Assembly (NCBI GenBank): GCA_949358305.1
Contig: OX442314.1
Coordinates: 4,464,001-4,528,000 of the forward strand
Direction: 5' to 3'
Source: Strigamia acuminata
Taxonomy: Eukaryota
DNA: 64,000 bases
Position numbers and translations under genes: made by a program. The notes under the pieces were generated by a model that was not told the origin of the DNA, did not search any database, and saw only the letters and a program-made list of their open reading frames with translations. Shown here in pieces: positions 740 through 20,139 of the stretch (position 1 is its first letter; every line of letters begins with the position of its first letter).

Positions 740-3700
740 ATGAAACCACCACGGGTTATCCGTATGTACCAAATCAATCCCAGCTGGCAAAAAGGTATCA
801 ACAAACAGCAAAATCCACTCAAATCTTATGCGTTCTAAATTTATTTCTCTTTCCCTAGGTGCCCCCAACTACGCAAAGAAAAAAATTGCCTTCATCAATA
901 ACAAGAAAATGGCGGACGCCAAGAATGATAAGATATCAATTCCGGGCTTCGATCGGATCCTCAATTCGAAGAAAAACATCGTTTACAGTATCCCGTGGTT
1001 TTTAATCATTTCTTTAAGCGCTCTCACCTGTTCCTACCAAATTTACGACAGATTCTACATCTATTTATCTCGGCCGATCGAAACTCGAATCAATCTAATT
1101 CGAAATTCCTCCGTTAAATTCCCGTCCATAACCCTGTGTCCCGGACCCGGCAATTACATGCCATTGCTCCCCATGAGAATCCAAAGAGCAAAGGAAATGG
1201 GTGTTACATCATTTTGCCCAATAAGTATTTACAGTTTGCTCAATGCGACCTTCAACATTTCTACAGTGTGGGACCTAGTATCGTTTAATGGATCATTGCA
1301 ATCGGCTTCGATAATTTCCGTAAAAAAAAAATATAAAAATACCGTATTTTACTGATTATAATAGAGCTGTGTTATTATTATGGGCGTTTCCAAAAGGGTA
1401 TTTGCTACTTTTGGCCTTATTTTAAAAAATTGTACGGGTTTTATTTGACATTTAACATTGATTTAAATACAAACGGATTAGTCCTCGAATTGTAGCCACC
1501 CTTGAATAGTAGCTGCAACTGAGACACCAAGAATACTGTATTTTTGCAAAAATGGCAGTTTTGAATAAGAGACGCGGTTCTTAATCGATAAAATACCGTA
1601 ATTCAAATTTATTGAAAATAATATTTTTTGGGCTTCAGAGGTCGACGACTCTTCTCGGAGTTGCATTATTCAAACCTCCTGCACTTTCACACGACGTTGT
1701 CACAAAAACTGTGTTCGGCTCGTGTCATACATATTCGTTCAGTAAGTTAATTAGAAAGCAATTGAACCTTGCGGCGATCCGGGTTTTTACTTATTAAATT
1801 ATTTAAATTCAATAAGCAATCGTCGTAGAGATGCCGTACAGGACTTCTACTCTGTGGCCAAATGTTTGTCTAGGGGAATGATTTTACACAGAGTAAAGGA
1901 AAAATTAGATAGTTTTAATCGTTCAAAATACAAAGGAGGTATTATTTAAAATGTTTGGGGTCGATCTGGCTTCTTCTTCAAATATACACTCACAGTTGAC
2001 CGTTGGCTCCAAGATGGCGTCGATGGCGTCGTGTGAGCGCGGGATTTTAGCGGAGTAAACTCAACGCTAAAATACGTTGCTAAAATATACTAAAAATCCT
2101 CGCGGAGCAAGCTCAACACGAGAATACGTCTTGCACACAGCGGTTTGATTATTACGGAGCAAGCTCGACGTAACAATCCGTCTTAACACAATCCGCCTTG
2201 TGGAGTTAAACTCAACACAAAGCCTTCAAATTGACAGAGCAAGCTCAATGTCAATTTACACACAGAAATGGCTTAAATTACGTGTAGTAATTCAAGCTAG
2301 AAAGTTGCTATTCCGTACAGTGGGTACAGACCAGCGATGAAACTCAATTCGTCCAAGAATCACAGATCACACTTTGCAGTTTTGGCAGAAGTTTGACACG
2401 GTTGTGAACAGTTTGGAGGTGGAATCAAGAGTGCGGGAAGAGTGGGCCAAAACCGTTTGGCTCACTTCTAAATCTGCTCAGAAAAGCTGCGCAGATGACG
2501 AGTTGCACAAAGATCACACACGGCCGCCTTCGGGTCGTGTGCAACAATTGAGCCGGGCACGCGCGAGGGGAAGGGATGCTCCGCCCAGGCACACGCCTAG
2601 CAGCATCATCAAAGTAATGCACGCTGCAGCGGGATTGGTTGACGCTGTTGCTGGGCCAAAACTTGCTGCAAAACACAATATTATTTGGGTAATATTGTGT
2701 CTTGTTTTATATTTTATTAATGTATGTTTTATTTCAATTTACATTGAAATAAAACATATAGGCTTGTTGAATATGTTTAAAAGACAATTTGGAAATATGG
2801 TGCGCACTCAAATAGGAATATTTGAGGTCACCACACTTCCCCCCCTTTTAAGAAAGAATCTTATTCTTTTCCAAAAAGAGACAGGTAAGTATGAGAATAA
2901 ATACACAAGGTTTCAAAGTAAAATGGAACAGGATATATATTTATTCTTTTTTATTACAGTAAAAAAAAATAAAAAAGGAATTATTTTCAATGAATGGGCA
3001 TGTTCCCCAATTATTTAGGCAACATGTCCGTTGAGTGATCGTTTGGATCTTTGTGCTCTGTGACGGTGCACAAAGGTCGGCCGGCGTTTGGTCCTGACCG
3101 GAAGCCAGGGTTGATGTGGAGCCACACTTGCTTTATGCGGTCCACACCATCCCTTCGTCCAAAACCCATCTCGAAGTACTCCTGCGGGTCTTGAGGCGTA
3201 ATTCGAGCGAACACCAGGCGTTGATGCAGGATCCACGGCTGCTGTTCCTTGATGTGGTTTTCCAGCCACGCGAGGACTCGGTTGCATAAATCCTCGCTGT
3301 TCTGGAGAATCGTTTTCGTCGCGCTCGTTATGTAGCAAAAGGCGTATAATGAGCGCAAACGTTGATAGGCGGTGAGGTGGGTGGCCATACTCGATCCCCT
3401 ATCTCTTGGCGGCGAATCCTTTGGAGGGGGCGGCGGTGGCGGCGACTTCTTGCAGATCGAGAGGGATCTGGATCTGCGCAAAGCCGGGGTGCGCGTCTTT
3501 GGTCTGGCACCGCAGGCCACAGGCACGACGAACTCGCGATCGTCGCTGTCGAGCCACTCCATTGGAGACGAGATGTTGCAACTCGGTGCCTCGGTCGCAC
3601 GGGAAACACTCGACGTTGCCGTGATGGCAGCGTGGAGTGGAGCTGCGGATGACGGTGGTGCGCCAGCGGGACGGGCGGTGGCTCGTTCTGCTGCGCGTCG

Positions 3701-6700
3701 CTGCTTCAGCGCAGCCCATTCCTGCCGTAGTCGAATGGCGGATCCAGCCGGAGTTTCGCCAGTCGCCTCGGCTTGTTGCGTCAATTCGGCGAGCATCGTT
3801 GGAGGATCGGGGCGAACTGACTCCCAATCGTCCAGCAAGGCTCGTGGAAGCCCTAGCGGCACGGTCCACAATCGAGTGGCGGCGGCCAGAGCAATCTGTG
3901 GGTCGGGAAAGACTCCTTGGAACAGGATTCGAAGAAGTCCCTCCGACAACTTTCTGTTCATCTTCTGCAGCGTCCGTTGCAGTTGCTTGTCGGACTTGCA
4001 CGACGTAAGCTCTCGCGCAAGCCATTGCCATTCTTTCTCTCCTTCGCGGATCTGAGCGAGTTGGTATTCGTCCAGATGCGCGAGGTACATCGTTTGGGCT
4101 GTCTCGGGAAACGATGAGAATCGCCTCCAGAGATCAGCGCACTCCTGTGCGGGAAATGGTTCTTGAGAGACGTATCCCTCAAAACGGATGACCGATGTCA
4201 CGTGTGGCACGGGCACCGATGGGTCTGGTCGCATGTCGCTGGTGACTGGACGGCAAGCGAACGGCAAAGAGGTGTTGACGTCTCCTTGACCGGCTTGCAA
4301 TGCGGCGATGCGTCGATCTTCTTTCGCTATCTCGTCCGACCAGTCAATTCGGCCGGAGGAGGAAGCGCTAGGCTGTGAAGCGTTGGACCTTTCTTCACGC
4401 GATGAGAGAGAACTCCTCGTGGAAGATTGGCGCGATTGCACTCGAGGTCGGCTTCGGGATGTGGGTCTCGACACGGACTTCGAATGTCTTTTTGGCGGCG
4501 TCGACTCGCGTCGGTGATGCGAGCGATGACGAGCCTTCTGGAGTGGAGGTAACCCTCCAATGGCGCCTTCCCCCGACGACTGTGTTGGGGAGGAGCGACG
4601 GCCACTGTAGGGCGACCTCGATGATCGTGACCTCGACGTGGAGCGCGGTGGCACCACGTGGATGGTGGAAGCGACCTGTACCCGGGGCTCAGGCTCTGGA
4701 TACGGGTTTGGCACAAAATCAGCATGGAAACATCCGCCCATGGCTAGCTGATGCATCTCCGATTGGCATGTCGGCACCCAACGTTTCTTTCCGTCCGTTG
4801 TTACACGGAAAGATTCGTGGTAGAGGCGTACAACCTCGGCCTTGGTTTGGTCCAAGCGTTGGAAAATGTCCTCCAAAATCTGTCGACGCTCCCACGCAGG
4901 AGCGTTGAAGTAACGGCGATGGTCTCGCGTTTCTTGATTGATCACTGTGAAGGCGAAGTCGAGCAACACGTTTCGCAGTGGTCCGAAGGTGTCGCGCTTC
5001 ATTGCCCACTCGAGGGCGTCGCGATGACCGAATCCATCGATTAAATAGGCGATCCGAAACTTCGTTCCCCATCGCTTGTTTAAGGCTTTTGAGAACTTGT
5101 GTCGGGCCGCCCAAAACGTCAGTCTTCCTTTAGACTTTATGATCTCCGGTGGCAAAGCGTGTCGCCAGACACCGGGAGCGGTTGGAACATCGGAGTGTAG
5201 TTCGAGATGCGTTTCCCGAAGCTGGATGATCTGTAAAAATATTCGAAGAAATAATTAAAATCCATTTTTTCGTGTAAAATAATTATTTCCGAATTTTCAG
5301 TGAATAAAATCACGGGTGAGATTTCATTCGACAGTTTAGATTCATTAAATCTTTCAAAATATTTGAAAAATCGTGAAAAACGTTGTTTCCGACGGCTATG
5401 TTTCAATGTTTGGAGCGTTGCCGTAGCAACGCCTCAAAAACGAGACACAGCGCCATCTGATGATAATAATGGCGGCGCCTTCTTGCGAAGGCGTTACCAA
5501 CGAACTTTTCGCTTTTTCCGAGTGAAAATGCACTTTTAATTACTTTTCATGACTGAAAGGTAATTTTATTTTAATTTATTTACCCGGTCGTGTCTCTGTG
5601 CACGAGTTTCGCCGTTTGGATCGGCGAATAGGCCTCCTCGAAGTTGTGGTCGGGGCGGCGCGACTGGCAAACGGGCTGCAGCGTCGGCCAGAGCGGCTTG
5701 AGCTTCGGCGGACGCTTCGGCGGATTCTTCGGTGACATCCACGGATGTATTCGAAGTATTTGCGGAACCAAGCAGCGTCGAATTCGTTTCTAATTCGAGG
5801 CTGTTGGCGCCGGCTTCGCTTCCTTCTTTCGGTTCTCCTTCTTCCATTTGAACGACTAATCCAAATGGAAAAGAAAAACGAAAATTAATTTATTAGTTTT
5901 TCCTTGGAAAATTCCAAAGAAAAAACTACTTACAATTGAAGAATCTCGTTGAAATAATCCGGTTGTTTCGCTTTTGGTTTTTTGGAGTTGAGCACTTAAC
6001 ACACGTGTGAGATCGAAGTGAACTCAGACGCGAAGTGATCAGTTCAAATACCGGAAGTTACGTTTGGGTAACGTCGCGGTTAGTGACGTCATCCAATCTT
6101 ATTGTTTGATTGGTTTGCGTATGGCTTGGGGAATTGCTCCTTACGTCATACGGCTGATCCCTGGATCTCGAGGTTAGCGAGGGGAGAAGACACATGTTGT
6201 TTTTTCCTCTCGGTTTACGAGTCCGAAGATTATATCTCTTTGTCGGCGAGGGATTTATTGTATTTAAATCGCCATCTTCATTGTCATCGGAGACTGAGTC
6301 AGATGAGTCTTTTATTTCAGATGTTTTTTGTTTCTTTTCTAAAAACACCTTTTTATTTAATTTTTTAGCAATTTCAAGCTTTTTGAAACTGTCACGAAGT
6401 TCAACGTCGTTATTCACGAGGTCTGACTCCATTTGTGGTTTGGATGAATTATCGACAGGTATTTTCTTTAATTCATCGTCATCTAACGTATTAATTATAT
6501 TTTCAGTTTTTTGACCGACTTCTTCGCCTTCTAACCATACTTCCTGATCGAAACTCGGGAAATACGGAGTTAATTCAGACGAATGGACAGCTGGAAATAT
6601 TTCGTTATTTTCTAGCTTTCTCAATTCTACGGATCCTCCCTGTAATACTTTGGTTATTACATATGGTCCTGTTCTTTTATCAGCGATGCCAGCTGCAATG

Positions 6701-9700
6701 CCGCGGGCAGCGCTCGACAAAACATGAGAATCTCTCCAAACTAAATCGTTTAATTTAAAATTGGAGAACTTCTCACCTTCTTTTTTAAGATTAACTCGTC
6801 TACGCAAATCTAACACGTGTGACATCATGTGCTGATATGTTTCGGCGATAACGGCTTCTAATTTTTGCACGTATAAATGTGGGTTTTTTGGATCTACGAC
6901 CAAAATTCCTTCAGGTATTCTTGGATCCCAAGGTACTCTGAGTTCGCGAAAAAAGTTAAGAAATGCGGGAGAGAAGTCTCTTCCTCTCGTCACCGTAGTT
7001 CTCAAACTAAATGCAAATTCACGCAAATATTCGTCCCATTTGGAATGAACCGATGAATAAATTGCAACCAAATATTTGATGTCACGGTTAACCCTTTCAA
7101 CCGGGTTAGCTTGTGGGTGATACGTTGAAGTTGGTGTTGGAACCATCTTGAACTTTTCACAAAATTTTTTAAAGACTTGGGCTCGAAATTGCGGGCCGTT
7201 GTCAGAAATAATTTTACGAGGGAATCCCATGCTCATGGAAAGGTGATAAATACAATTTGCTACTTTTCCAGCAGTGGGGTTACACATTGGATATAATTCT
7301 GGCCAATGAGTTGCCACGTCAAGTATGACTAAAATATGTGTGTTGTTTTTGCGCGTCCGAGGTTTCGGGCCGGTCAAATCAACACTTAGGCAGTCAAATG
7401 GGCTGTAAGGACCCATTTGCGCTGCTTCAATTTGTCCTTTCGTTCGAGGCTTGCAAGCTTGACAACGCTCGCAATGTCGAATGAATCTCGTAATGTCCGA
7501 TTTCATGCCTTTCCAGGTATAAATTCGGCGCGCTCGATAAAGAGTCCTTGCAATTCCTGGGTGGCCAGAAAGTGGGTGGCCATGCATTAGCCAAATAATT
7601 TTATACTTCAATGTCTGAGGTACAAAAACTTTGAGTGCTCTCCCATCCTCCCCCAATTCATCAGACATTGTGGGATGAAATTGCATTAATAAGTCATCTT
7701 CAATTAAGAAGGTGGTTGCGTGTTTTCTATATTGTTTCCTCTGGAGTCGCGTTGTGACGTCAGGCGGAAATTGATTACAATTTAAAAAATTACGCATCAA
7801 TTGGCAAACTTTATCTTCTTTTTGGGCCTTGATTATGTCTTCCCTTGTGGGAGGTTCACAATCAAGACGTTCTACAATTTTGGCGACAAATGCTTTTATT
7901 AAAACATTTGACGAAGGAACTTGGAATTTCCTTGAAATTTGCGCTCTTATGACGTCATCTGATTCCTCAGAGGAGTCATAAATTTTAGTCCAATAGTTGA
8001 CGAATTCATGATCTTCCTTTTCCTCCAGTGTGGAGACAGGAAGTTCATGAAATTTTCCCATTTTCCAATTTCGTTGAGGTGATGGACAGTAAGATAATAA
8101 TTCATCATTATCTCCATCATCTTCAGGATTTTCCGGTTTGTCAATCGGTGATCTGGATAAAGCATCCGCTAAAACATTTAGTGGACCTTTAATATATTGT
8201 ATTTCGAAAGAGTAGCGCATTAGCTCCATTTGCCAACGCGCTAACCTTCCGGCAGGTTCGTCTAACTGCATCAACCATTTTAATGCTTGATGGTCAGTCC
8301 TTACTATGAATGTTGTAAATTCCAAGTAATGTCGAAATTTACGTAATGCCCAGATTACCGCTAGGCACTCCAATTCTGTGGCGCTGTAATTTATCTCAGC
8401 AGGTTGCAAACTTCTGCTGGCATAAACACAAGGCACTTCGATATTTTGATCATCGATTTCCCTCATTTGCATAAGCGCGGCGCCAAGTCCTTTTCTGCTG
8501 GCGTCGGTATGCACAATAAATGGTTCTGTCAAATCAGGCATGGCCATTGTTTCTGCATTCGTCAAAGCATCTTTTATTTGATCAAAAGCTTCTTGATGAA
8601 TTTCTGACCAAATAAATTCCACATCCTTTTTGAGTAAAGGACGTAGAGGTTCTGTCATGACTGCTAGATTCTTGAGTAATCTGTGAAAAAAGTTCACCAT
8701 TCCCAAAAATCTTTGCAACTCTTTCAAATTTGAAGGAGCTGGCATTTCTTTAATGGCGGCGACTTTTTTAGGGTCGACACTAACTCCTTGAACACTTAAC
8801 TTGTAGCCAAGAAAAGTTAATTCTTTTCTGCCAAATTTTGATTTTTCTGGATGAACATGAAGATTTGCATTTTCAAGTTTACTCAGAATTTCTTCCAGAT
8901 GAATCATGTGTTCTTCAAAATTTTTAGATATAATAATTATATCATCGAGGTATGCCCATGCGAATTTTCGATAGGCGTCCCCCAAAATCTTTTCTATCAA
9001 CTTTTGGAAAGTTGACGGCGCATTTACGAGACCAAAGGGCATGACTCGAAATTGTAGTCGACCCAAAGGGCTCCAAAACGCAGTTTTAGCACGGTCGTTC
9101 GGATGAACCTCTATTTGCCAATAGCCTTTTGACAAATCTATCGTTGTGACCCATTCAAATCTTCCGAGTTCTCGCAAGATTTCCTCAATGCTCGGCATTT
9201 GAGGAGGATCGTATAATGTATGTGCATTGAGTGGTCTAAAATCAATGCATAGTCTCGGATCACAATCCGGACGCATCACTAGAACTATTCGCATTCCATA
9301 GTCTCCAGTGGCTTGTTCGACGTACCCATTATCCAACATATCTTGACAGATTTGACGGATAATTTCACGTTTCTGTGGATTTACGCTTTTAAACGGAACT
9401 CTAATTGGAACTTTAGTGTCCAGTTTAATTTCATGCCTAACGAGGTGTGTTCTACCTGGTCGGCGAGATAAAATCTTTTCATGTTTCTTTAATACTCTTT
9501 CAAGCATTAAATTATTTTCCATTGACAAATTAGCGTCGCTAACAAGTCTTTGTACTATATTTTCTTCATCGGCAACTTTAGCTTGACATGCAGTGGCGGA
9601 ACCAGCTTTCATGTGATTTGCTTTAATAAAGTCGCGTTTCATGATTTCTTCGGGTGGATCAAGGAACTCTTGATAACGATCAAGAATCGCTTGAGGAACA

Positions 9701-12700
9701 AAAGGTAAATCTTCTTTCAAAGACTTGACAAAATTCCAAGACATGGTCTTAGGATTTGGTTGAATATTGAGTCGATTCATGAAATCACATCCTAATAAAA
9801 TAATAGGATATTTATTTCTTAAAATTATGAATGGATGACTTAACATCCTGTGAGTCCACGCAAAAGAAAGTAGGAGAGTTCTTTCAGGGACTACATCTTC
9901 TGAAGCAGTCGTAACTCTCACATCCGGTCCAATTGGTCGAATTTCGTCTTCCATCTTCAGTGAAATTACTACGGAGTAGGCCATGAAGCTTCGATTAGCT
10001 CCAGAGTCTAACATCCCTGTTATCATACCGTTTGCCGTCTGCAATCGAATTGTCGGCAAATCATTGCTGTTTGGTATGTCCGCGTATTTGCATTTAAAAC
10101 GTCGCGGTGGTTTAATTTCTATCGGCGGATCCAATGGTAATTCGTCCAATAAATCATTAGTGACTAGCGTTGTAGCCATTAATTTTTCAATACAATCGTC
10201 AAGACCAGGTAAATCAATTTTATCTGACCTTTCAACAATTTCAGGTGTTGGCCTAGCTTTTTCATCAAGTAAAGTAACAGCATCTTTTATTTTAGATTCC
10301 CAATCAACTTTTATTTGTTGAACTTTTTCTTTAAAAAATTCTTCAGTGATGTTTTCATTTTGCAGCACAAGCCTTAAACTGGAAACATCAATTTTTGGAA
10401 ATACTAAATTATTTTCGATTTCTAATTTAATCTGAGTATTCAAAAATTCATCTAAAATTTGAGATGGTGTTAGTTCTTTTTCCGAGGCGTTGGGCGTCGC
10501 ATCCACTAGACCGTCTGGATGCGCGCTTACAAGTTTTTTAGAAGTTCGCCGATTGATTTCATCGATTTTTCGAACTCCTCAATGATCTTGTCTTTGCTCG
10601 ATTTCCTATCAGGACATTCTTTAGCCCAATGTCCCAATTTTTTACAAATATTACACGGGTCAGTAGCAGGCGATTTCGCGACTTTTGGCGAAGGCGAACT
10701 TGAACGTTTGGCTTCGTCCTTTTTAGGGGTCGGCGACTTCGATCTACTGAGCGCGTCTGTCTTTGGTGAACCAAAAGTAACGTTTTTAGGCGCCATCTTT
10801 GGTCCAAATTTTCGAGCTACTGCGTTATTACGGGCTAATAAAGCAGCTGCAGCCTCGCTTTCTGGTTCCGAGTCAGATTTCTCTGGTTCAGAAGCAGTTT
10901 CCATTTCAGTCACTTCGGCTAAGTGAGCTTTAGGGGTTGGATGTGGATTTTTCCCATCCGATCCCTTTTTAGATTCCTTAGCAGTCTCTGCCAAAAAATC
11001 TCCTCGTTTTGGGGGTTGCAAAAGAGGGGTATTAGCAAAACGTGTATCTTTAGCTAATTCCTTTCTCCGTTGCTGTCGCTTAGCGTACGCAACTTTTTCA
11101 TCAGCTGGTAGATAAGCTTTATAATTTTCGTCAATCCTTATTTGATTGGCTCGCATAAATTTGGCTAATTCAGCGAAACCACCCGGATAAGGTGCTCGTA
11201 CTGAAAGTAGAACATTTTTTGAATAATCTGTCAATCCACGTCGGAATTGACGATCAATGGCTGCATCTCCCATCGTATAAGGGAGAGTGACCAATAAATC
11301 CTCAGTCCTTCTTAAATAAGAGCGAAGACTTTCGCCTTTATTTTGAGAAAGATTATCCCACATTTGTAATAAGTCTTCACTTGACTCTCCATACTCAGTC
11401 ATGAATTCTTCTACAAAGTGGTTCCAATTTTGAAATTGTTTAGAATAAAACCATTTCTCAGCTCGGTCTATAAGAGCTTTAGGTACTACTCTTTTCAAAG
11501 CAGTGTGACATGCAATGCCATTCAACCTTGAAATTCGTAAAACTTCATCTAAAAGAGTGGATCCAGCTTCCCATTCTCCATCGAATAAAGCGGGTTTGAT
11601 GTGATCCCATCTAATAGTTCTTTCATCAACTAGATCGTGCGTCCAGTTGTTGGCAGTGTATTGAGCAATTTTCTGTCGTAGTGCAATGTCAGCATTATCG
11701 GCAGTAGCGTCAGATCGATCGGAAGATCGACGATCAGCTAATAATCGATCAATTTCTTCAGCAGTGTAATAATGTGTATTACGCCGAGAAGAATGGCCTC
11801 GATGTCGACGTCGATGAGATCGATGTCGATTATCGCGTTCTTGTTGCGCATTCACATCAGAATCCGACCTTGAATCAGATTGTGAATTTGAAGGCGTGTT
11901 AAAATGTGGTGTTTCAGGTGGGTCGGGTGGGTCGCCGTCATCGTCTGGCGGTCGACGTCCACCTCCAGGTGGTCCATCTCCATGTCCATCTGGATTTCCT
12001 CCATCTGGTGGATTTCTTCTATACTGACCCCCACCTGGCGGGCTTTCATGTCCGTCGGGTGGTTCGCGTGCTGGATTCGTGTCTCGTCGACTTCTTTTCG
12101 ACGAGTCTTGCTGTTGAGCCAGTGGTATCATTCGAGTAACATGAATACCAGTTTCATGCCGCCTATTTCGATCATCTACCATTCCCAACAGTCGGTCACT
12201 GTTGTGAAAAATAGGATTTCGATTACCTGGGAGCGGATTGCGATCAGCTCTCCGTTCCTCGGAATCTGAAGGACGTTTTCTTTTTGAGCGATGGCGGCGA
12301 CGCGAACGTTGGTCGTCATCACTCGATAATCCAGATTGGCTACTTAACTCTGAAACAACGGAAATTGTTATTGTTTCGGGAGTCAAAATAGGGACAGTTG
12401 GCGCAGCCATTTCTGGTTGCACCAATTGGTCAGTATAATTTCTTGCTTGCAAACGATCTTTCATTTCTGCAAGCTCTTCTTGAGCGCGCAACAAATCAGC
12501 TCGGAGAATTTCATTCTCATTTATTTGATTTTGCGATTCTTCTGGTTGTAATCGCTTAGCAGGGTTGCTAGACTTGACTTGTCCGCTCGTACTGGGTTGA
12601 TCCAGCGAGTGGAAAATCTCGTCTTCACGCTTAGCTATTTTGCTTTCGCGAGTACGCTGTGTTTTAGCACGTGTGTCTAATTCAGCAGCATATCTCACTA

Positions 12701-15531
12701 GTTGATTATGATTGCGTTGGTAGTGGTCTGCCAAATCAATCAGTTCTTTATTTTTCTGCTCCAGTTTACTTTTGGTAAGCTCGAGCTGTCTTCGCGCCTC
12801 TTGGTGTGAGCGAATTGAAAGTTCATTTCTAGTATTCATTTTAGAAAGATCTTCCACTTCACCTTTTAATCTGTATTCTCTAGCTTTTTGGGCTAGAAAT
12901 TCCTCATTTTGTCGATTGAGTTCCATATGTTGGAGCTCAACCTCCGCTTTTTGTTGTTGAAGCTCAGCTTCTTTTCGCTCCATTTCAAATTGTAAATTTG
13001 AAACGGCGCGGTCAGTGTGAAGTCGTATCATGGCGCGATGAATCTCTTCCACCGTCATGTCGTCCGTTATTTGGGCGCCATCCTGGCGTGCTTGATTTCT
13101 CAAAGCATCCAACATGGTCATGCGAGGAGGTGATTCGTGAGACGATTCACTTTCCATTTCACGTAACGTATTTTCCACTTCCTCCAGTGGAAGTGGCGGG
13201 AGTTCTTGGTCGTTAGAACTCGCACTTGAAGCGCTTAATGCTCTAGCAACTTCATTTTCAGCATCCTTAAGTTGTTTCGGATCTGGAACTGGTGTTATTT
13301 CTTCAGAAATAATTTTTTCCATAAGCATTTCAGGCTCGAGAGCCGGCAAAACCGTCGCTGCTCGTTTCTGAGTGCTTGGTCGACCTCGCTGTCGTTTTAC
13401 AATTTGCATTGGCGTCGCCATTTTGTCAAATTGAAAAAGAACAATGGAAATAAAGGATTTTTTCGCAAAAATCGGATTTTAACAATCAAAACTATCCCGG
13501 ACGGGCCCCCAAGTGCGGCGATCCGGGTTTTTACTTATTAAATTATTTAAATTCAATAAGCAATCGTCGTAGAGATGCCGTACAGGACTTCTACTCTGTG
13601 GCCAAATGTTTGTCTAGGGGAATGATTTTACACAGAGTAAAGGAAAAATTAGATAGTTTTAATCGTTCAAAATACAAAGGAGGTATTATTTAAAATGTTT
13701 GGGGTCAATCTGGCTTCTTCTTCAAATATACACTCACAGTTGACCGTTGGCTCCAAGATGGCGTCGATGGCGTCGTGTGAGCGCGGGATTTTAGCGGAGT
13801 AAACTCAACGCTAAAATACGTTGCTAAAATATACTAAAAATCCTCGCGGAGCAAGCTCAACACGAGAATACGTCTTGCACACAGCGGTTTGATTATTACG
13901 GAGCAAGCTCGACGTAACAATCCGTCTTAACACAATCCGCCTTGTGGAGTTAAACTCAACACAAAGCCTTCAAATTGACAGAGCAAGCTCAATGTCAATT
14001 TACACACAGAAATGGCTTAAATTACGTGTAGTAATTCAAGCTAGAAAGTTGCTATTCCGTACAGTGGGTACAGACCAGCGATGAAACTCAATTCGTCCAA
14101 GAATCACAGATCACACTTTGCAGTTTTGGCAGAAGTTTGACACGGTTGTGAACAGTTTGGAGGTGGAATCAAGAGTGCGGGAAGAGTGGGCCAAAACCGT
14201 TTGGCTCACTTCTAAATCTGCTCAGAAAAGCTGCGCAGATGACGAGTTGCACAAAGATCACACACGGCCGCCTTCGGGTCGTGTGCAACAATTGAGCCGG
14301 GCACGCGCGAGGGGAAGGGATGCTCCGCCCAGGCACACGCCTAGCAGCATCATCAAAGTAATGCACGCTGCAGCGCGATTGGTTGACGCTGTTGCTGGGC
14401 CAAAACTTGCTGCAAAACACAATATTATTTGGGTAATATTGTGTCTTGTTTTATATTTTATTAATGTATGTTTTATTTCAATTTACATTGAAATAAAACA
14501 TATAGGCTTGTTGAATATGTTTAAAAGACAATTTGGAAATATGGTGCGCACTCAAATAGGAATATTTGAGGTCACCACAACCTTGTCGCCATTTTCTATA
14601 TTTTTCAGACGATCTAATTCCCTACAAGAAAGACGACTACTCCATTCTGTTTGATTTTAAACCAAATTTTCTCTTTTGCTCCCCAAACATCAGCGCATTG
14701 GTACGATCCATTTTTCAATCCTTTTAGCAATTCAACTAAACCCAAATCTTTTCTTTATCTTATCAAGTTCATGCTTCACAATAATGACGACATCATTAAT
14801 TACAAAATGTCGACTGGATTTCAGCATCACGAGCCACACACTGTGAAAAAATTTGGATTGTCCGCAAAAAGAGTTAGTTCTAAAAATTGATTTTATTCAG
14901 GCTGATCAGTTTGTACGAACACGCTAGAGTCTAGGGAGTTCATAAACTTTTTAGCATTGCGACCCATTTTTAAGACGGGCGATCTTCCACATATGATTAA
15001 TATCTTCAATATTTTAATGCAGTTCAGGATTTTGAATCGAACCGAACAACCATGCGACACAGGTAAAATTGTAAGCAAATGTGAAATAAACTGCATTGAA
15101 AACGCCCTGAAAAACATCAGCCACTGCAGGTGAGAACAACATATCGAATCACAATTAATTAATTCAATTCAATTCAATTCAATTTAATTACGTAATCAAA
15201 TTATAGGTTTCCTTTCACTTCGCTTTCCGAGCTGCCGTTGTGCGCGAATGAAAGTGAAGCGGCTGCTGGGTGGTTCAACGCGATGAAATTGGCAATATCT
15301 TTCAACTATTTGGAAAAATGCACCTGTCCCAAAAAATGCGATGAAATACTGTACACTGAACATGTGAAAGAAAATGGGCCATCCCGTGATTCGCGATTAT
15401 TCATCTACTTTGATGATAATGTGATCGAAGAAATCGAAGAGTCTTACAGCTACGGTTTGATCTCTTTCATGTGCGACGTCGGGGGCAATTTGGGACTTTT
15501 TCTAGGACTAAGCATACCTGCTGTGTTTTAG
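740..15531 (+). CDS. DEG/ENaC (pickpocket/ASIC-like) channel subunit, copy 1; exons approx. 740-794, 859-1319, 1639-1741, 14609-14700, 14768-14872, 15023-15129, 15207-15531; Gypsy insertion in intron 3; premature stop late in TM2
   Basis: TM1 WFLIISLSALTCSYQIYDRF, FPSITLCP motif, Cys-rich thumb (CEINC, CTCPKKC), TM2 CDVGGNLGLFLGLS; GT-AG junctions keep the frame. Confidence 0.88.
1770..2835 (-). repeat. 3' LTR of Gypsy element A
   Basis: Direct repeat of 13514-14579; sense strand TGTGGTGACC...CCGCA; adjacent to PPT AAAAGGGGGGGAAG (2836-2849). Confidence 0.96.
2044..2257 (-). promoter_or_regulatory. Array of five bulged RNA stem-loops in the LTR (second copy at 13788-14001)
   Basis: Five units of stem-UU/UC-GAG-loop-CUC-stem with different, self-complementary 8-10 bp lower stems. 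Confidence 0.8.
3011..5847 (-). CDS. Spliced accessory ORF3 of element A (exons 5847-5584 and 5230-3011, about 827 aa), Arg/Ser- and Pro-rich, unknown function, not Env
   Basis: The 93-aa ORF ends at a phase-0 GTAAAT donor. The long ORF is open back to a phase-0 TTTTTACAG acceptor at 5231. Homologous to the ORF at 59845-62631. Confidence 0.8.
6058..10533 (-). CDS. pol: Pol polyprotein (PR-RT-RNaseH-IN) of element A, entered by -1 frameshift
   Basis: LDSGA protease, YLDD RT, TDAS..ELECLA RNase H, HHCC zinc finger, DDE integrase and GPY motif, in Gypsy domain order. Confidence 0.96.
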   Translation of the reverse strand, partial: LVSAHPDGLVDATPNASEKELTPSQILDEFLNTQIKLEIENNLVFPKIDVSSLRLVLQNENITEEFFKEKVQQIKVDWESKIKDAVTLLDEKARPTPEIVERSDKIDLPGLDDCIEKLMATTLVTNDLLDELPLDPPIEIKPPRRFKCKYADIPNSNDLPTIRLQTANGMITGMLDSGANRSFMAYSVVISLKMEDEIRPIGPDVRVTTASEDVVPERTLLLSFAWTHRMLSHPFIILRNKYPIILLGCDFMNRLNIQPNPKTMSWNFVKSLKEDLPFVPQAILDRYQEFLDPPEEIMKRDFIKANHMKAGSATACQAKVADEENIVQRLVSDANLSMENNLMLERVLKKHEKILSRRPGRTHLVRHEIKLDTKVPIRVPFKSVNPQKREIIRQICQDMLDNGYVEQATGDYGMRIVLVMRPDCDPRLCIDFRPLNAHTLYDPPQMPSIEEILRELGRFEWVTTIDLSKGYWQIEVHPNDRAKTAFWSPLGRLQFRVMPFGLVNAPSTFQKLIEKILGDAYRKFAWAYLDDIIIISKNFEEHMIHLEEILSKLENANLHVHPEKSKFGRKELTFLGYKLSVQGVSVDPKKVAAIKEMPAPSNLKELQRFLGMVNFFHRLLKNLAVMTEPLRPLLKKDVEFIWSEIHQEAFDQIKDALTNAETMAMPDLTEPFIVHTDASRKGLGAALMQMREIDDQNIEVPCVYASRSLQPAEINYSATELECLAVIWALRKFRHYLEFTTFIVRTDHQALKWLMQLDEPAGRLARWQMELMRYSFEIQYIKGPLNVLADALSRSPIDKPENPEDDGDNDELLSYCPSPQRNWKMGKFHELPVSTLEEKEDHEFVNYWTKIYDSSEESDDVIRAQISRKFQVPSSNVLIKAFVAKIVERLDCEPPTREDIIKAQKEDKVCQLMRNFLNCNQFPPDVTTRLQRKQYRKHATTFLIEDDLLMQFHPTMSDELGEDGRALKVFVPQTLKYKIIWLMHGHPLSGHPGIARTLYRARRIYTWKGMKSDITRFIRHCERCQACKPRTKGQIEAAQMGPYSPFDCLSVDLTGPKPRTRKNNTHILVILDVATHWPELYPMCNPTAGKVANCIYHLSMSMGFPRKIISDNGPQFRAQVFKKFCEKFKMVPTPTSTYHPQANPVERVNRDIKYLVAIYSSVHSKWDEYLREFAFSLRTTVTRGRDFSPAFLNFFRELRVPWDPRIPEGILVVDPKNPHLYVQKLEAVIAETYQHMMSHVLDLRRRVNLKKEGEKFSNFKLNDLVWRDSHVLSSAARGIAAGIADKRTGPYVITKVLQGGSVELRKLENNEIFPAVHSSELTPYFPSFDQEVWLEGEEVGQKTENIINTLDDDELKKIPVDNSSKPQMESDLVNNDVELRDSFKKLEIAKKLNKKVFLEKKQKTSEIKDSSDSVSDDNEDGDLNTINPSPTKRYNLRTRKPRGKNNMCLLPSLTSRSRDQPYDVRSNSPSHTQTNQTIRLDDVTNRDVTQT
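10495..10539 (-). promoter_or_regulatory. Programmed -1 ribosomal frameshift signal (A AAA AAC plus downstream hairpin)
   Basis: In-frame slippery heptamer at 10539-10533, just before the gag TAA; stem CGCATCCA/TGGATGCG at 10523-10498; pol is in the -1 frame. Confidence 0.85.
10527..13421 (-). CDS. gag: Gag of element A (964 aa; coiled coil, capsid-like region, CCHC knuckle)
   Basis: CNICKKLGHWAKEC zinc knuckle; lies directly after PBS; homologous to the gag at 36061-38628. Confidence 0.93.
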   Translation of the reverse strand: MATPMQIVKRQRGRPSTQKRAATVLPALEPEMLMEKIISEEITPVPDPKQLKDAENEVARALSASSASSNDQELPPLPLEEVENTLREMESESSHESPPRMTMLDALRNQARQDGAQITDDMTVEEIHRAMIRLHTDRAVSNLQFEMERKEAELQQQKAEVELQHMELNRQNEEFLAQKAREYRLKGEVEDLSKMNTRNELSIRSHQEARRQLELTKSKLEQKNKELIDLADHYQRNHNQLVRYAAELDTRAKTQRTRESKIAKREDEIFHSLDQPSTSGQVKSSNPAKRLQPEESQNQINENEILRADLLRAQEELAEMKDRLQARNYTDQLVQPEMAAPTVPILTPETITISVVSELSSQSGLSSDDDQRSRRRHRSKRKRPSDSEERRADRNPLPGNRNPIFHNSDRLLGMVDDRNRRHETGIHVTRMIPLAQQQDSSKRSRRDTNPAREPPDGHESPPGGGQYRRNPPDGGNPDGHGDGPPGGGRRPPDDDGDPPDPPETPHFNTPSNSQSDSRSDSDVNAQQERDNRHRSHRRRHRGHSSRRNTHYYTAEEIDRLLADRRSSDRSDATADNADIALRQKIAQYTANNWTHDLVDERTIRWDHIKPALFDGEWEAGSTLLDEVLRISRLNGIACHTALKRVVPKALIDRAEKWFYSKQFQNWNHFVEEFMTEYGESSEDLLQMWDNLSQNKGESLRSYLRRTEDLLVTLPYTMGDAAIDRQFRRGLTDYSKNVLLSVRAPYPGGFAELAKFMRANQIRIDENYKAYLPADEKVAYAKRQQRRKELAKDTRFANTPLLQPPKRGDFLAETAKESKKGSDGKNPHPTPKAHLAEVTEMETASEPEKSDSEPESEAAAALLARNNAVARKFGPKMAPKNVTFGSPKTDALSRSKSPTPKKDEAKRSSSPSPKVAKSPATDPCNICKKLGHWAKECPDRKSSKDKIIEEFEKSMKSIGELLKNL
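13494..13511 (-). promoter_or_regulatory. Primer-binding site, tRNA-Pro type
   Basis: TGGGGGCCCGTCCGGGAT, one mismatch to the canonical tRNA-Pro PBS TGGGGGCTCGTCCGGGAT, 2 nt from the 5' LTR. Confidence 0.9.
13514..14579 (-). repeat. 5' LTR of Gypsy element A
   Basis: Direct repeat of 1770-2835, followed on the - strand by the PBS. Confidence 0.96.
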
Positions 15532-16302
15532 CTTGTGGAGTCATTCGTCCTTTGCTCTTTCAAAAAATTGACATAATATTGATATTTATCACCTCATGTT
15601 ATGCTATGATATCGTGTTGCACAAAAAATCATTCTGTAATAAAATAATTAAAAATTAATAATTAAAAAAAACCTTTGAACTGTAATGTGATTTCTATTGG
15701 ACCAACAAACAAAGTTAGAGTGCAACAACCACAGCACCATTCATATCACAAGAATAATATGCTCTTGAATAATTAAACTGTTCGATATATGAAGGTATTT
15801 AAGAGCATATTGGATTGAATCAACCACAGTAAATAACTTGGAAAAAAAAGATATGTAATTCTTTTTTTTTAAATTAATAATTGTACCCGGTGAAACTTGG
15901 CATTTCCAGGTCCACACGACAACAACAACGTTGGTAAAAATCCGTAAAAATCACAAACGTGATATAAGAGTTAGTGCTCTTATAAATTAAAATTGATTTA
16001 AGCTTACTCCAGATTATCAAAGAATCAACAAAGACTAGATTTTAATTATTTATATAAAATATTGGTTTCAATCTAAGGTATGAATCAAACACAAACAAAA
16101 GAAATGTGTTATCAAAGCGAATGCTATCAAATAATACTTAAATAATTAAACAGTTAATTTTAGTTACACCAATTAAATAAATATAAGAATATATGAACTT
16201 TTTTGTAATAATAAATTAAAAATTGATTTTTCAACCTATCACCTCCTATATTTGTAACATGTTCACATTTATACTGCAATGTGACTTCTACGTGACAATC
16301 TA

Positions 16303-19300
16303 ATGGTACCACCACGACTTGTTGCTATGAATCATAGCAATCCCAGCTGGCAGAAATGTATGTGTAAAGGTGGAAACACAAGGGAGCAGGTAAAATTCCA
16401 AAGCTTGCTAGTACAAGAACAAGTTTTAAAAGGGGAGTCATTTAGACAAGCTCACTTGACCGCTTTTGGTTTACCAGCTTAACTGGCAAACTCAAGCTAG
16501 CTAGGTAGCTAGCCAGAAATTCCCGCCAAAATCTCCTCCAAGAATTTCCTCACGATTCTGATTGGCTGTCAAAGTCACATGACCAAAGCACCAGCAAGCT
16601 TGAAGCTGGTAAATCAAACTCAGTTTGATAGGAGTGGGTGAGTACAAAATCGCTTCAAAACAAAGCTTTGAATAAAAACGCAAACTTGTGTTTGCTCAAG
16701 CAGGTGAGATTTTAGCCGCTTTTTCTACTAAAAGCAAGCTTTTAAATTTTACCCGTTCCCTTGTGTTTCCACCTTTAGACTCATACAAAATGTTAAACTT
16801 CTACTTCTAATTGCATTAATCATTAATTCTATCTAATTACATAGGTAACACACCCTCAGAATATACCAGGAAAAAATTAGCCTTCATAAAGTATCAGAAA
16901 ACTTCCACTATGCGAAAGGATATGGACCGCGAAGCCAACGCTTTGAAGATATATATTGAAGGCCTTTATCGTGTTCTCAATTCAAAAAAGGGATTCGGTT
17001 ATAATTTCCTTTGGTTTCTAGTAATTTCATTCAGTGCTCTTACTTGCTTATATCAAATTTACGATCGATTTAGCGTATTTTTATCGCGCCCCATTGAAAC
17101 CAGAGTCACTTTGTCTCGTAATTCGTCCGTAAAGTTTCCATCCATAACTCTATGTCCCGTCAACAACAACTATATACCTTTAGCTATGATGAGATACCAG
17201 AGAGCAATTAAAACAAAAGAGAAAAATCTCTGTAAAGTAAACTATTATAGTTTTCTAAACGACACGCTTAACGTTTCAACTCTATGGGACCTTATGTCCT
17301 TTAACGGCACATTGGAAAAGGCTGGAGTACATTCTGTAAGAGATTGAAAAGAAAATAATTAATTTTTTTCTCCAAATTCTCATTCGATTTTTCAACAGAG
17401 ATCTTCAATAATCATTCAACAAAAATTAATGGGTTTGCCAACTCTCCCGGTTGAAATTATTACAAAAACTGTATTGGGCTCATGCTTCACATATTCCTTC
17501 AGTAAGTTTATATTCGTACATTAATTTCCTCTTCCTTTACTGAAATTTCCAACATATTCTTCAGAAAATCTTATTCGCTTTCGAAAAGATGACTTCATGA
17601 TTGTGTTTACTTTATACCAGAACCGCCCCGGTAAGGACACACCATTTTGTACTCCATGTTTCACAACATGGGTAAGGATAACAATCGTATTACCATACTT
17701 TAAGTGGCATGCCGGTATAGCCTGGGTTTGACCAGACTGCCGGTAAACCCCGTTTCACCGGCTTGTGCCATTATGATAAAATACAATTCAACGAAAATTA
17801 AATCAAAGCAAGCTATAAAAGCGTTTTTAGATGTCCAAAATGCAAGTAATTAGCCTAAGTTTTCACAAATTTTAATAACAACCTTCAGAAAATTTAAAAA
17901 AATCAAATTTCTTGCCAGAATTCCAACATTTGGGCATTGTTGGTTTTTCGCTGGTACTAGCATGTTTCACTTTATACTGGCTTTCGGGTAAAACCTTTGT
18001 AACTAAAATTTTCAAAAGTTGGTAATTTCCTGCACCGGTTTGCTGCTTAAAGTGGGGTAAAATTGTACTTAATTGTCCAGCTCTAGCTGATACTAAAATC
18101 ATGCCGTTTCTTCCTTCAATAAGTTTATGCTGCACAATCACGATGACATTATTAATTACAAAGTATTAAATGGGTTTAGAGCTCACAAACCAAACACCTT
18201 TCACGCATATGGATTGTCTGCAAAACAAGTTGGTTTTTCCAGTATTTTCCTTTAGAAATTTGAAATTTATTTATAATCTCATTAGTTTAAAATTTTGAAT
18301 CGACTCAAACGACCCTGCGATTCAAACAAAGTTGTAAGCGAGTGTGAAAAAAACTGTCTTGAAAATGTCCTCAAAAACACTAGCCATTGCAGGTAAGAAC
18401 TACAATTTGCGCCCAGTATCTTGATGCTAAATTCGTACTGTGCGTCCCATTGTGCGCAGACGATTTTCTAATTCTAGTTGTTATTTAGCAGTATTAAGCC
18501 TAATATTAGGCTTAATAATGTGACCGCTTGGCCACCCACAGGTTACCAGCGTCACTGCCACACGCCGCCCAATGGCCTTAAGGTCATCCCTCCTCGCGGA
18601 TTGGTATGACCCAGTATAGGGAAGGAGAGAGCTGAGTGGTGTGCTGAGGAGAGAGAGTGTAGAAGAGCGCTGGGTCTCAACCGAGACAGTTGTGTAGGAA
18701 GTAAGGTCTTGTAAGGCCAACAAGGGTAGTCGTGCCCTGAGTTGACTCTGCTCTCCTCCCCATTCACCACTGTGATGCTCAGTAGTGTGATGATGGCTCT
18801 GCTAAAGCCTCCATGAGCGATTGCATGTGTCGCACAGGTAAGTACGGCAGAATGTTACGTTTGACCGGCCATGTAATACATGAGGTTCTCACCCTGTTTG
18901 ACGGGTCAGTTGTTGGTGTGGCATGCCTTCGCGGCACTGCCAACACGCGGGTAGACGAGTCTCTAACCCCTAGACAAACGGATTAAAGGCCAACAACCAA
19001 CAATCTAGAGTCTCTAGTCTTCTTTATGTGAGTGTCCCAAACCACGGTAACCAGTCCGCTGGCTGCCATGGCAAAGACCATACCAGTCACAATAATGCTA
19101 AAATAAAGGAAATAAAGCAAATAAACACATTATTAACAGCAATTTACACTGTAGAACCAAAATATGGCTGTTTATTTGCTTTATTTTAGCATTATTAGGC
19201 CTAATGTTATGCTTAATAATTGTCTGCGCAAAATGGGATGCCCAGTACAAATTTAGCATCAAGATATCAAGACAAAACGAATTGAATTTAATTTTTGCTT

Positions 19301-19706
19301 ACAGTAGAATGCTATTCTTGTTTATTAAAGATTGCCTTTTGTTTCTTTCTCCAATCTGCCGTTGTGTGTGAATGAAAATGATGCAATAGATGCACACTTG
19401 AAAGCAGAGCAGCTGGCTATTACTTTTGATTATTTAGAACAATGCAACTGTTCTAAAATATGCGATGCCATTTTGTACACTGATCATTTGAAGGTGATCG
19501 ATAATTCTGACAAGTCAGTGTTAGCCTTCTATTTTGACGACAATATGATTGAAGAAATTGAAGAATATTACAGCTACACGTTGATTCCCTTCATCTGTGA
19601 TGTTGGTGGAAATTTGGGTCTTTTTCTCGGATTAAGCATCCCTGGCTTATTTCAGGTTATGGAGTCATTCGTTGCTTACTTTTTCAAAAAACCCACCTCA
19701 AATTAA
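16303..19706 (+). CDS. DEG/ENaC channel subunit, copy 2; exons approx. 16303-16357, 16845-17335, 17399-17501, 17565-17671, 18124-18228, 18286-18392, 19331-19706
   Basis: FPSITLCP, Cys-rich domain, CDVGGNLGLFLGLS; same exon structure as copy 1; frame appears intact. Confidence 0.9.
16368..16774. mobile_element. MITE (possibly PIF/Harbinger-like) in intron 1 of copy 2
   Basis: TIRs AGGTGGAAACACAAGGGA / TCCCTTGTGTTTCCACCT, flanked by TAA/TTA. Confidence 0.7.
18417..19266. mobile_element. MITE hosting a nested solo LTR
   Basis: Inverted arms TATCTTGATGCTAAATT..GTACTG..TCCCATT..GCGCAGAC and their reverse complement at about 19220-19266. Confidence 0.6.
18519..19091. mobile_element. Solo LTR
   Basis: TGTGAC...GTCACA termini, 4-bp TSD ATAA; related to 43517-44833. 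Confidence 0.7.
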
Positions 19707-19763
19707 ACTTAACAACTTTATTGACTATTGATTATCATATCATTCAATGTATCTTTGTTATTA

Positions 19764-20139
19764 AAGGGTTTCACAAATGAAACGCTGAAGGCGCTAAAAT
19801 GTGTGTTCCAATAATCACAATCAATGCATTATTGAGGACCCACGCCAGGTTCAATTGATTATTTTGCAAGTCATATAACTTTTATTTATACTTTATTTTA
19901 TTTTTGTTATTTATTTATTTGTTTTTGTTGAATTAAATTGATTATTTATTTAATAATTTACAACAAATTCTCTTTTTCCTTATTTTAAGCATACTTCAGC
20001 ACTAACAACTCCTTTTCAGACGATTATACATAAGTGCTGAAGTGCTGAAGCGATTATTCATGTGATTGGCCCAAAAGGTCACATGACAATTGTTTTAGCA
20101 GAATAATCGGCGCCTTCAGCATATCACTTTTGAAACCCC
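19764..20139. mobile_element. MITE
   Basis: Imperfect TIRs AGGGTTTCA..GCTGAAGGCGC / GCGCCTTCAGC..TGAAACCCCT. Confidence 0.55.

What the first reader, a model, noticed from the sequence alone, without database searches (positions are those of the whole stretch)
2044..2257. Five covarying TAR-like bulged RNA hairpins in a Gypsy LTR
Seen: on the element's sense strand (listed in ascending + coordinate order) the units read AUUUUAGCG-UU-GAG-UUUA-CUC-CGCUAAAAU; AUUCUCGUG-UU-GAG-CUUG-CUC-CGCGAGGAU; GAUUGUUACG-UC-GAG-CUUG-CUC-CGUAAUAAUC; GCUUUGUG-UU-GAG-UUUAA-CUC-CACAAGGC; AAAUUGACA-UU-GAG-CUUG-CUC-UGUCAAUUU. The lower stems differ in sequence yet stay paired. All four non-Watson-Crick positions are G-U on this strand (C-A on the other), which points to selection on RNA structure. 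Known: a U-containing bulge followed by G-C/A-U pairs is the Tat-binding core of lentiviral TAR (UU bulge in HIV-2), and G(CUUG)C is an extra-stable tetraloop. Inference: a multivalent protein-binding RNA element, possibly for the element's own Arg-rich accessory protein or Gag. The transcription start site could not be located.
Basis: partly seen in the sequence, partly recalled or inferred. Interest (0 to 1): 0.88.

Follow-up and report, generated by a model that had tools for sequence, protein, structure and literature searches.

The report
TAR-like hairpin array in Gypsy retrotransposon
A young jumping gene in an animal genome carries, in its end repeats, five RNA hairpins whose stems differ yet stay paired around one fixed core matching the protein-gripping pocket of HIV's TAR RNA; they likely dock one of the element's own proteins, probably to get its unspliced RNA out of the nucleus, but no binding or function has been tested.

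Summary
The five hairpins are real, at the stated coordinates and in both LTRs of a young, intact Ty3/Gypsy element (LTRs 2 mismatches in 1066 nt, 4-bp TSD). They are far beyond chance. Stems covary (8 of 14 pairs change on both sides) around an invariant core: purine pair, U-pyrimidine bulge, G-C, A-U, G-C. That is the secondary structure of the TAR/7SK arginine-sandwich pocket. Among other copies the spacers vary, the core does not, and the second bulge base toggles U/C. The element has an orphan accessory gene (ORF3, about 827 aa) with a probable internal promoter and an intron that is exactly missing from one contig, so transposing copies keep a real intron. A 24%-identical ORF3 lies in a sister element whose LTR lacks this motif. 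It is not a TAR by membership: no CUGGGA loop, no Tat-like protein, start site unmapped, probably not at +1. Best reading: a multivalent docking array for an element protein, most likely Rex/Rec/CERV-like export through ORF3; Gag packaging is nearly as likely. The G-U strand argument is weak. No RNA data or binding evidence exists.

The parts
2228..2257 (-). Hairpin H1 (first in the RNA; LTR nt 579-608): 9-bp lower stem, UU bulge, GAG/CUC, CUUG
2195..2223 (-). Hairpin H2: 8-bp stem with one U-G, UU bulge, GAG/CUC, UUUAA. Other copies mostly read U-A at that pair (2197) and often C at the second bulge base (2214)
2147..2178 (-). Hairpin H3: 10-bp stem with one G-U, UC bulge, GAG/CUC, CUUG
2096..2125 (-). 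Hairpin H4: 9-bp stem with two U-G, UU bulge, GAG/CUC, CUUG
2044..2073 (-). Hairpin H5 (LTR nt 763-792): 9-bp stem, UU bulge, GAG/CUC, UUUA
13788..14002 (-). Identical five-hairpin array in the 5' LTR
1770..2835 (-). 3' LTR, 1066 nt, TG...CA
13514..14579 (-). 5' LTR; differs from the 3' LTR at 2 positions; target-site duplication AGGT at 1766-1769 and 14580-14583
13494..13511 (-). Primer binding site, tRNA-Pro type
   Evidence: begins like the tRNA-Pro PBS given for Cer1 in PMC10309623; no tRNA sequence was compared
2836..2849 (-). Polypurine tract
   Evidence: sequence
10527..13478 (-). gag (983 aa stop to stop; Retrotrans_gag, one CCHC knuckle; two Arg clusters of 7 R in 15 aa near 12302 and 11828)
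6058..10578 (-). pol (PR-RT-RH-IN, 1506 aa, intact; overlaps the end of gag in another frame)
6014..6113 (-). Predicted internal promoter for ORF3: two CCAAT boxes, CRE-like, ETS-like and Inr-like words (labels recalled)
   Evidence: sequence, coordinates; untested
5584..5847 (-). ORF3 coding exon 1 (88 codons from ATG)
5231..5583 (-). ORF3 intron, 353 nt, GT-AG, phase 0
   Evidence: read from the sequence; one contig of run X1 skips exactly 5231-5583 (table 5)
3011..5230 (-). ORF3 coding exon 2 (739 aa); orphan; Arg/Ser-rich tract (48% R+S over 96 aa)
2438..2474 (-). Candidate LTR core promoter (TATA-like word at 2474, Inr-like A at 2443; same spacing as in sister element C); a second candidate lies at about 2268
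   Evidence: inferred by analogy; the strict TATA+Inr scan did not pass it
1787..1819 (-). 13-14-bp AU-rich hairpin at the place where sister LTRs hold AATAAA in a stem; candidate poly(A) hairpin (no canonical AATAAA here)

Best explanation
The array is a selected set of five covarying RNA hairpins in the LTR of a Ty3/Gypsy element, each predicted to form a TAR/7SK-type arginine pocket, and it likely serves as a multivalent docking site for the element's own ORF3 protein, which would let the intron-retaining genomic RNA leave the nucleus, as Rex, Rec or CERV do. Shown: the hairpins, their covariation, the invariant core, low variation among copies, an intact orphan ORF3 in the env position, and a contig that lacks exactly its intron while the window's copy keeps it. 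Inferred: that the first bulge U forms a triple with the A-U pair and an arginine stacks on the purine below (from identity of secondary structure with TAR and 7SK ASM3; about 0.65); that the array lies in a long R region and so at both ends of the genomic RNA (about 0.6); that the binder is element-encoded (about 0.65); that it is ORF3 acting in export rather than Gag in packaging (a little better than even among the two). ORF3 would be made first from its own promoter as a spliced mRNA, bind the five sites cooperatively and license unspliced RNA for export, translation of Gag-Pol and packaging.
For: Real and non-random; covarying stems; 7 of 7 core positions invariant against 2 of 16 lower-stem columns, p = 1.5e-4, and units differ at 6-13 of 16 arm sites, where random change keeps all pairs about 1% of the time or less per comparison. 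Among copies in runs X1 and X2 (one study): substitutions at 12 of 63 spacer sites against 4 of 151 hairpin sites, p = 1.2e-4, none in the core; of the four, one turns U-G into U-A, one is the second bulge base U to C, one turns a terminal G-C into G-U, one (1-2%) breaks a terminal pair. ASM definition (purine base pair, pyrimidine cap, spacer, triple with the second pair) fits 5 of 5 units (PMC6189040, passages). ORF3 intron supported by an exact joint and by a frequent 1-nt deletion at 5235 that falls in it; none of the 10 listed indels lies in a coding exon. Sister element B keeps an intact ORF3 homologue (24% identity, pairwise E 5e-13) but not this RNA motif, as expected of a family-specific pair. 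Precedent: Cer1, a Gypsy element with a tRNA-Pro PBS, needs a spliced orphan protein for gRNA export (PMC10309623, passages); the HERV-K RcRE lies in the LTR (PMC6916052, passages).
Against: No binding, expression or export data. Gag has denser Arg clusters (7 of 15) than ORF3 (5 of 15), and no NES-like pattern was found in ORF3 exon 2 of this element. ORF3 has no homologue or fold that points to a function. The start site and poly(A) site are unmapped; the strict promoter scan passed only element C. The 82 nt flanking the array list no substitutions either (edge effects possible), and at 10% share or more the hairpins vary at 2 of 151 sites, about the rate of the whole element (157 places in 11,901 nt for X1). 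So part of the contrast is hypervariable spacers: 11 of the 12 spacer sites fall in two clusters that may be a few haplotypes. Earlier unchecked notes of this scan report covarying hairpin arrays in LTR elements with no accessory gene, which favours Gag or host binders in general. Known Rex/Rec elements are long branched structures, not rows of small hairpins (recalled).
Confidence: 0.36

Rival explanations
1. Packaging or assembly signal: the Arg-rich N-terminal half of Gag docks on the five pockets to select genomic RNA, which would hold ten units (both ends) if the array is in R.
For: Gag has two clusters of 7 Arg in 15 aa and only one CCHC knuckle. Covarying arrays recur in non-coding and gag-only LTR elements in earlier unchecked notes. 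An intron-less copy in a DNA-like run would mean spliced RNA with an LTR end was once packaged. Packaging signals in a terminal repeat exist (HBV epsilon; recalled).
Against: An R or U3 location would also put the array on ORF3 mRNA; retroviral psi elements usually lie past the PBS and bind through G-rich loops (recalled), whereas these loops are U-rich and variable.
Confidence: 0.28
2. True functional TAR analogue: the 5' copy recruits P-TEFb through ORF3, or decoys host HEXIM by mimicking 7SK ASM3, and so releases paused polymerase.
For: Bulge and upper stem match the TAR pairs named in PMC6189040. ORF3 from an internal promoter fits a transactivator, as for foamy virus Tas (recalled). A second start candidate near 2268 would put H1 about 12 nt from the cap.
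Against: No CUGGGA loop for cyclin T1 (PMC5644649 and PMC10083321, passages). ORF3 has no Cys-rich Tat-like domain: 11 scattered Cys in 737 aa. The better start candidate puts the array at about +187 to +400, far for a position-dependent TAR (recalled). No Rfam TAR family matched at E up to 10.
Confidence: 0.13
3. Docking sites for a host RNA-binding protein (transport to the germ line, stability, translation), with no element protein involved.
For: An invariant core with a freely changing stem fits any fixed partner; five copies give avidity; the motif is specific to one family, as a newly captured host site could be.
Against: No Rfam match. A host site might be expected in sister elements of the same genome, which lack it.
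Confidence: 0.13
4. DNA-level or neutral origin: palindromic transcription-factor sites in U3, or old tandem duplicates whose stems were perfected by template switching, as in palindrome-rich Sirevirus LTRs.
For: GAGY..RCTC is a short inverted repeat in DNA; H3-H5 share flanking words and a period near 51 nt; the LTR holds other long inverted repeats; folding z-scores do not tell the strands apart; G-U excess over three LTRs is not significant; Sirevirus precedent (PMC4728375, abstract).
Against: A duplex DNA site does not need flanks that pair across a 2-nt offset; template switching would tend to erase the bulge, not keep it in 5 of 5 units; no tandem repeat is detected over the array at score 30; G-U-containing units are far less stable as DNA or on the other strand.
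Confidence: 0.1

Closest known systems
Lentiviral TAR (HIV-1, HIV-2, BIV) and the arginine-sandwich motif
   Same: Purine Watson-Crick pair, U-led pyrimidine bulge on the 5' side, then G-C, A-U, G-C; first bulge U fixed and second tolerant; sits in an LTR (PMC6189040, passages). UU bulge and tandem hairpins of HIV-2 are recalled.
   Different: U-rich 2-3-nt loop instead of CUGGGA; five separate copies; probably well downstream of the cap; no Tat-like protein; host element is Ty3/Gypsy, not a lentivirus.
7SK SL1 ASM3 (HEXIM and Tat site)
   Same: Two-pyrimidine bulge after a purine, followed by G-C and A-U; several pockets in one RNA (PMC6189040, PMC10083321, passages).
   Different: 7SK has GAUC palindromic double pockets within one long stem; here one pocket per small hairpin, GAG not GAUC.
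Cer1 CERV system of C. elegans
   Same: [quoted passage not shown]
   Different: The passages read name no cis RNA element for CERV; ORF3 here seems to have its own promoter; no sequence link was found (CERV itself was not aligned; database searches found no homologue).
Rec/RcRE (HERV-K), Rex/RxRE (HTLV), Rem (MMTV)
   Same: LTR-borne RNA element paired with a spliced accessory protein in an element that must export intron-retaining RNA (PMC6916052, PMC3856414, passages).
   Different: Those are retroviruses with small ARM/NES proteins and long structured elements; ORF3 is about 827 aa with no NES pattern in exon 2; function untested here.
Sirevirus LTR palindrome arrays
   Same: Repeated hairpin-forming motifs in the LTR of a retrotransposon (PMC4728375, abstract).
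   Different: Plant Copia; palindromes are a hotspot of change and siRNA, not reported in the abstract as covarying bulged stems with a fixed core.

Membership tests
Ty3/Gypsy LTR retrotransposon | LTRs TG..CA, TSD, PBS, PPT, gag, pol in PR-RT-RH-IN order | tested here: met
Arginine-sandwich motif (TAR/7SK) | Purine in a Watson-Crick pair, pyrimidine cap and spacer, then G-C and A-U pairs | tested here: met
   5 of 5 units against the definition in PMC6189040; secondary structure only
Arginine-sandwich motif (TAR/7SK) | U.A-U base triple forms and binds arginine | not testable with these tools
   needs NMR, SHAPE or binding assay
Lentiviral TAR | CUGGGA-type apical loop read by cyclin T1 (HIV) | tested here: not met
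   loops are CUUG, UUUA, UUUAA; loop role; BIV TAR does not need it (recalled)
Lentiviral TAR | Lies at the 5' end of the nascent transcript (+1 to about +60) | tested here: inconclusive
   no RNA reads; candidates at 2443 (array +187 to +400) and about 2268
Lentiviral TAR | Cognate Tat: small protein with Cys-rich domain and ARM | tested here: not met
   ORF3 about 827 aa, 11 scattered Cys in exon 2, no Pfam hit
Lentiviral TAR | Match to an Rfam TAR model | tested here: not met
   no TAR family among matches at E up to 10
Rex/Rec/CERV-type export system | Element has an intron that must be retained in genomic RNA | tested here: met
   GT-AG intron 5231-5583, skipped exactly in one contig of X1 (27 letters on the short side, letters between not known)
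Rex/Rec/CERV-type export system | Accessory protein from a spliced mRNA with ARM and export signal | tested here: inconclusive
   Arg/Ser-rich tract present; NES pattern absent in exon 2 of A, one weak match in B
Rex/Rec/CERV-type export system | Protein binds the RNA element and is needed for cytoplasmic unspliced RNA | not testable with these tools
   bench test
Retroelement packaging signal | Selective Gag binding and enrichment of the RNA in particles | not testable with these tools
   bench test; Arg clusters in Gag noted

The most novel reading that the evidence does not exclude
An invertebrate-type Ty3/Gypsy retrotransposon has independently evolved a Tat-TAR-like switch: an accessory protein made from an internal promoter binds five TAR-core hairpins in R (or the hairpins decoy host HEXIM as 7SK mimics) to release paused polymerase. 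That would make it a 'complex' retrotransposon with lentivirus-style RNA-mediated transactivation.
Probability: 0.13. Interest if true: 0.92.

Novelty: new variant of a known kind. Interest (0 to 1): 0.66.

Why it matters
Cis-acting RNA signals of animal Ty3/Gypsy elements are barely known, and the RNA target of CERV-like orphan proteins is not named in the passages read. Here a candidate signal is small, repeated, has the geometry of the best-studied arginine pocket, and sits beside a spliced orphan gene with a sister family that uses other hairpins. That makes partner and function directly testable with 30-nt RNAs. If it binds an element protein through arginine, the TAR/7SK pocket has been found by a retrotransposon independently of lentiviruses, and accessory-gene control of RNA fate extends beyond complex retroviruses.

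Tried and rejected
No whole genome is held for the window. No RNA holder listed: two runs of unknown kind, one study, contigs only, so start, end, strand and level of RNA could not be read; they may be the source of the window. ORF3 searches found nothing: word-based single and two-sequence profile, full HMMER over 1.84 billion representatives, Pfam, PHROGs (one hit at E 0.39 for B, ignored), PDB sequences (E 0.087, ignored), viral contigs. The Atlas gave no answer. AlphaFold models were unusable (mean pLDDT 34 and 47), so no fold search was run. Pol relatives reach only 46% identity; viral contigs gave none useful. Motif scans: 9 viral loci and 62 metagenome loci (33) hold repeated cores, but 0 of 71 have lower stems above 4 bp; they are plain repeats. 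The covariance model finds only the ten training copies above E 0.7 in the window. The Rfam 23S-methyl match (19 bits, cut-off 50) is chance. The word RHRSH shared by Gag and ORF3 is chance-level (p = 0.64). G-U strand bias over LTRs is not significant. Literature searches for a described case returned nothing on point: 0 papers; 1, off topic; 2, off topic; listings only, none on such an array; the library lacks most subscription journals and no supplements were read.

Full report
Observation. Each is an 8-10-bp lower stem closed by a purine pair, a U-pyrimidine bulge on the 5' side, GAG paired with CUC, and a cap that reads best as a fourth pair (C-G or U-A) closing UU or UUA. Of 5000 dinucleotide shuffles of the LTR 10 had one match and none two; a sequence-free descriptor gave one match in 17 of 1000 shuffles. 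Elsewhere in the 64 kb the strict motif occurs once, with a 6-bp stem, and a covariance model finds only the ten copies above E 0.7.

Covariation. Over the five units 8 of 14 pairs change on both sides and 0 of 500 shuffles reach the observed score; slid controls are far lower. Units differ at 6-13 of 16 arm sites yet keep every inner pair; random substitution keeps all pairs about 1% of the time at 6 changes. All 7 core positions are invariant against 2 of 16 lower-stem columns (p = 1.5e-4). Five related units are a small sample and the structure was drawn from them, so these numbers lean towards it. The strand argument is weak: 4 G-U to 0 A-C in the units, 12 to 6 in this LTR, 19 to 15 over three related LTRs (p = 0.3), and both strands fold at z = -3.7. 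The three G-U-containing units lose 4-5 kcal/mol on the other strand. The centroid fold of the 241-nt region keeps H1-H3 only; with local folding all five form.

The element. It is a young, intact Ty3/Gypsy retrotransposon: 1066-nt LTRs with 2 mismatches, AGGT target duplication, a PBS that begins like the tRNA-Pro PBS given for Cer1, a polypurine tract, gag with one CCHC knuckle, and pol in PR-RT-RH-IN order. Pol relatives in the database reach only 46% identity. It sits in a cluster of DEG/ENaC genes, so the host is an animal, likely an invertebrate (inferred). The array occupies LTR nt 579-792, 274 nt before the LTR end.

Variation among copies. Two runs of one study, kind not on record and held as contigs, contain the element at very high summed depth; they may be the window's own source. 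Over 2005-2300, 16 places show another base at 1% or more: 12 of 63 spacer sites and 4 of 151 hairpin sites (p = 1.2e-4; at 10% share 6 of 63 against 2 of 151, p = 0.009). None is in the core. At 2197 most depth reads U-A where this copy has U-G; at 2214 the second bulge base is often C; 2147 gives a terminal G-U; 2195 (1-2%) breaks a terminal pair. Among the 12 loose-end rows shown (54 not shown), five distinct variants reach into a core, and all keep the core letters they cover, with bulge and loop forms exchanged between units; only one arm is visible in each, so compensation could not be checked. Against this: the 82 nt of flank list no substitutions either, 11 of the 12 spacer sites lie in two clusters, and hairpin variation at 10% share equals the element-wide rate (157 places in 11,901 nt).

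The accessory gene. [quoted passage not shown] One contig of run X1 skips exactly these 353 nt, and a frequent 1-nt deletion at 5235 falls in the intron's pyrimidine tract; none of the 10 listed indels hits a coding exon. So the intron is most likely spliced in vivo, while the window's transposed copy keeps it. Upstream, at the end of pol, lie CCAAT, CRE-like, ETS-like and Inr-like words (labels recalled), a probable internal promoter. ORF3 has an Arg/Ser-rich tract (48% over 96 aa), no Cys-rich domain, and no homologue in any search; folds were unusable. A sister element in the same window has an intact homologue (24% over 421 aa, pairwise E 5e-13), and its LTR lacks the motif but holds other hairpins. 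Gag has denser Arg clusters than ORF3.

Where the array lies in the RNA. No RNA reads were available. Sister LTR C has a canonical TATA and Inr at nt 222-253 and AATAAA at 569 of 632; B and the truncated D share a TATA-like box and leader near nt 182-270; B buries its AATAAA in a stem near the end. Element A has a TATA-like and Inr-like pair with C's spacing at 2474 and 2443, which the strict scan did not pass, and a 13-14-bp hairpin at the poly(A) position (z = -7.3). This suggests a long R holding the array at about +187 to +400 and again at the 3' end. A start near 2268, just before H1, or one downstream of the array cannot be excluded. In every case the array is transcribed.

Mechanism. 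The core meets the published definition of the arginine-sandwich motif at the level of secondary structure: a purine pair as base, a pyrimidine cap, a spacer, G-C, then the A-U pair that takes the triple (PMC6189040, passages). The fixed first U and the U/C second base are what that motif predicts. Five copies give avidity. The element has the problem that Rev, Rex, Rec and CERV solve, a retained intron, and an orphan spliced gene in the same position as CERV (PMC10309623, passages); the HERV-K RcRE lies in the LTR (PMC6916052, passages). I therefore put ORF3-dependent export first (0.36), Gag packaging second (0.28), TAR-like elongation control (0.13), a host binder (0.13) and a DNA-level or neutral origin (0.10). 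That the hairpins are selected RNA structure I put near 0.9.

Comparison and novelty. It is built like the TAR bulge but is not a TAR: the cyclin T1 loop, a Tat-like protein and an Rfam match are missing, and the position is untested. Literature searches found no description of such an array in a Gypsy element (open-access library only; supplements not read). Papers seen: passages of PMC10309623, PMC6189040, PMC10083321, PMC3601003, PMC3856414, PMC6916052 and PMC5644649; abstract and outline of PMC4728375; the rest as listings. Earlier unchecked notes of this scan list 10 findings of covarying hairpin arrays in LTR elements of at least 8 genomes, several without accessory genes; none matched this sequence or the TAR wording. 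So arrays as such seem recurrent, and what is particular here is the TAR-type core beside a spliced orphan gene. Verdict: real, selected, a new variant of retroelement cis-acting RNA signals; interest 0.66.

Noticed in passing
window 59845-64000 (-), LTR pieces 59509-59800 and about 53826-54300: Sister Gypsy element B with an intact 933-aa ORF3 homologue, predicted multi-exon with its own promoter after pol; its 3' LTR is split by a Copia insertion and holds two hairpins with a shared 7-nt loop core (GACCA) after a repeated word.
   Followed up: partly
window 35022-39344 (-): Non-autonomous sister element C (gag 31% identical over 366 aa, same PBS type, no pol or ORF3), LTRs 1 mismatch apart, with a clear TATA+Inr at LTR nt 222-253 and AATAAA near the end, implying a long R.
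   Followed up: partly
window 1866-1875, 35190-35199, 54097-54106 (-), 18968-18977 (+): A 10-nt word (CCCTAGACAA) is shared by the 3' halves of four otherwise unalignable LTRs; a YY1-like GCCAT word (label recalled) is shared by three. Unexplained clade-wide signal.
   Followed up: partly
window 2721-2760 and 2669-2704 (-): Two long U3 hairpins (16 bp with GUAA loop, 15 bp); the first buries an AATAAA, and a second AATAAA follows, so ORF3 mRNA might end early in U3.
   Followed up: partly
window 2022-2229: Low-depth contigs in both runs skip H2-H3 or H2-H5, so single copies with fewer units seem to exist.
   Followed up: no
window 54306-59508 (+): Young Copia element (546-nt LTRs, 1 mismatch, TSD GATCA) nested in LTR B.
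   Followed up: partly
window 744-1355, 15196-23800, 40119-46346: Tandem cluster of intron-containing DEG/ENaC (Pfam ASC) genes; element A is inserted in one of them. Points to an animal host, likely an invertebrate.
   Followed up: partly
window 34348-34797 (-): Truncated LTR D, 75% identical to LTR B over the TATA-to-leader 89 nt.
   Followed up: partly
window 25795-29500 (-): Another LTR element with a 998-aa gag-protease ORF containing a 48-nt coding repeat and a partly deleted pol.
   Followed up: no
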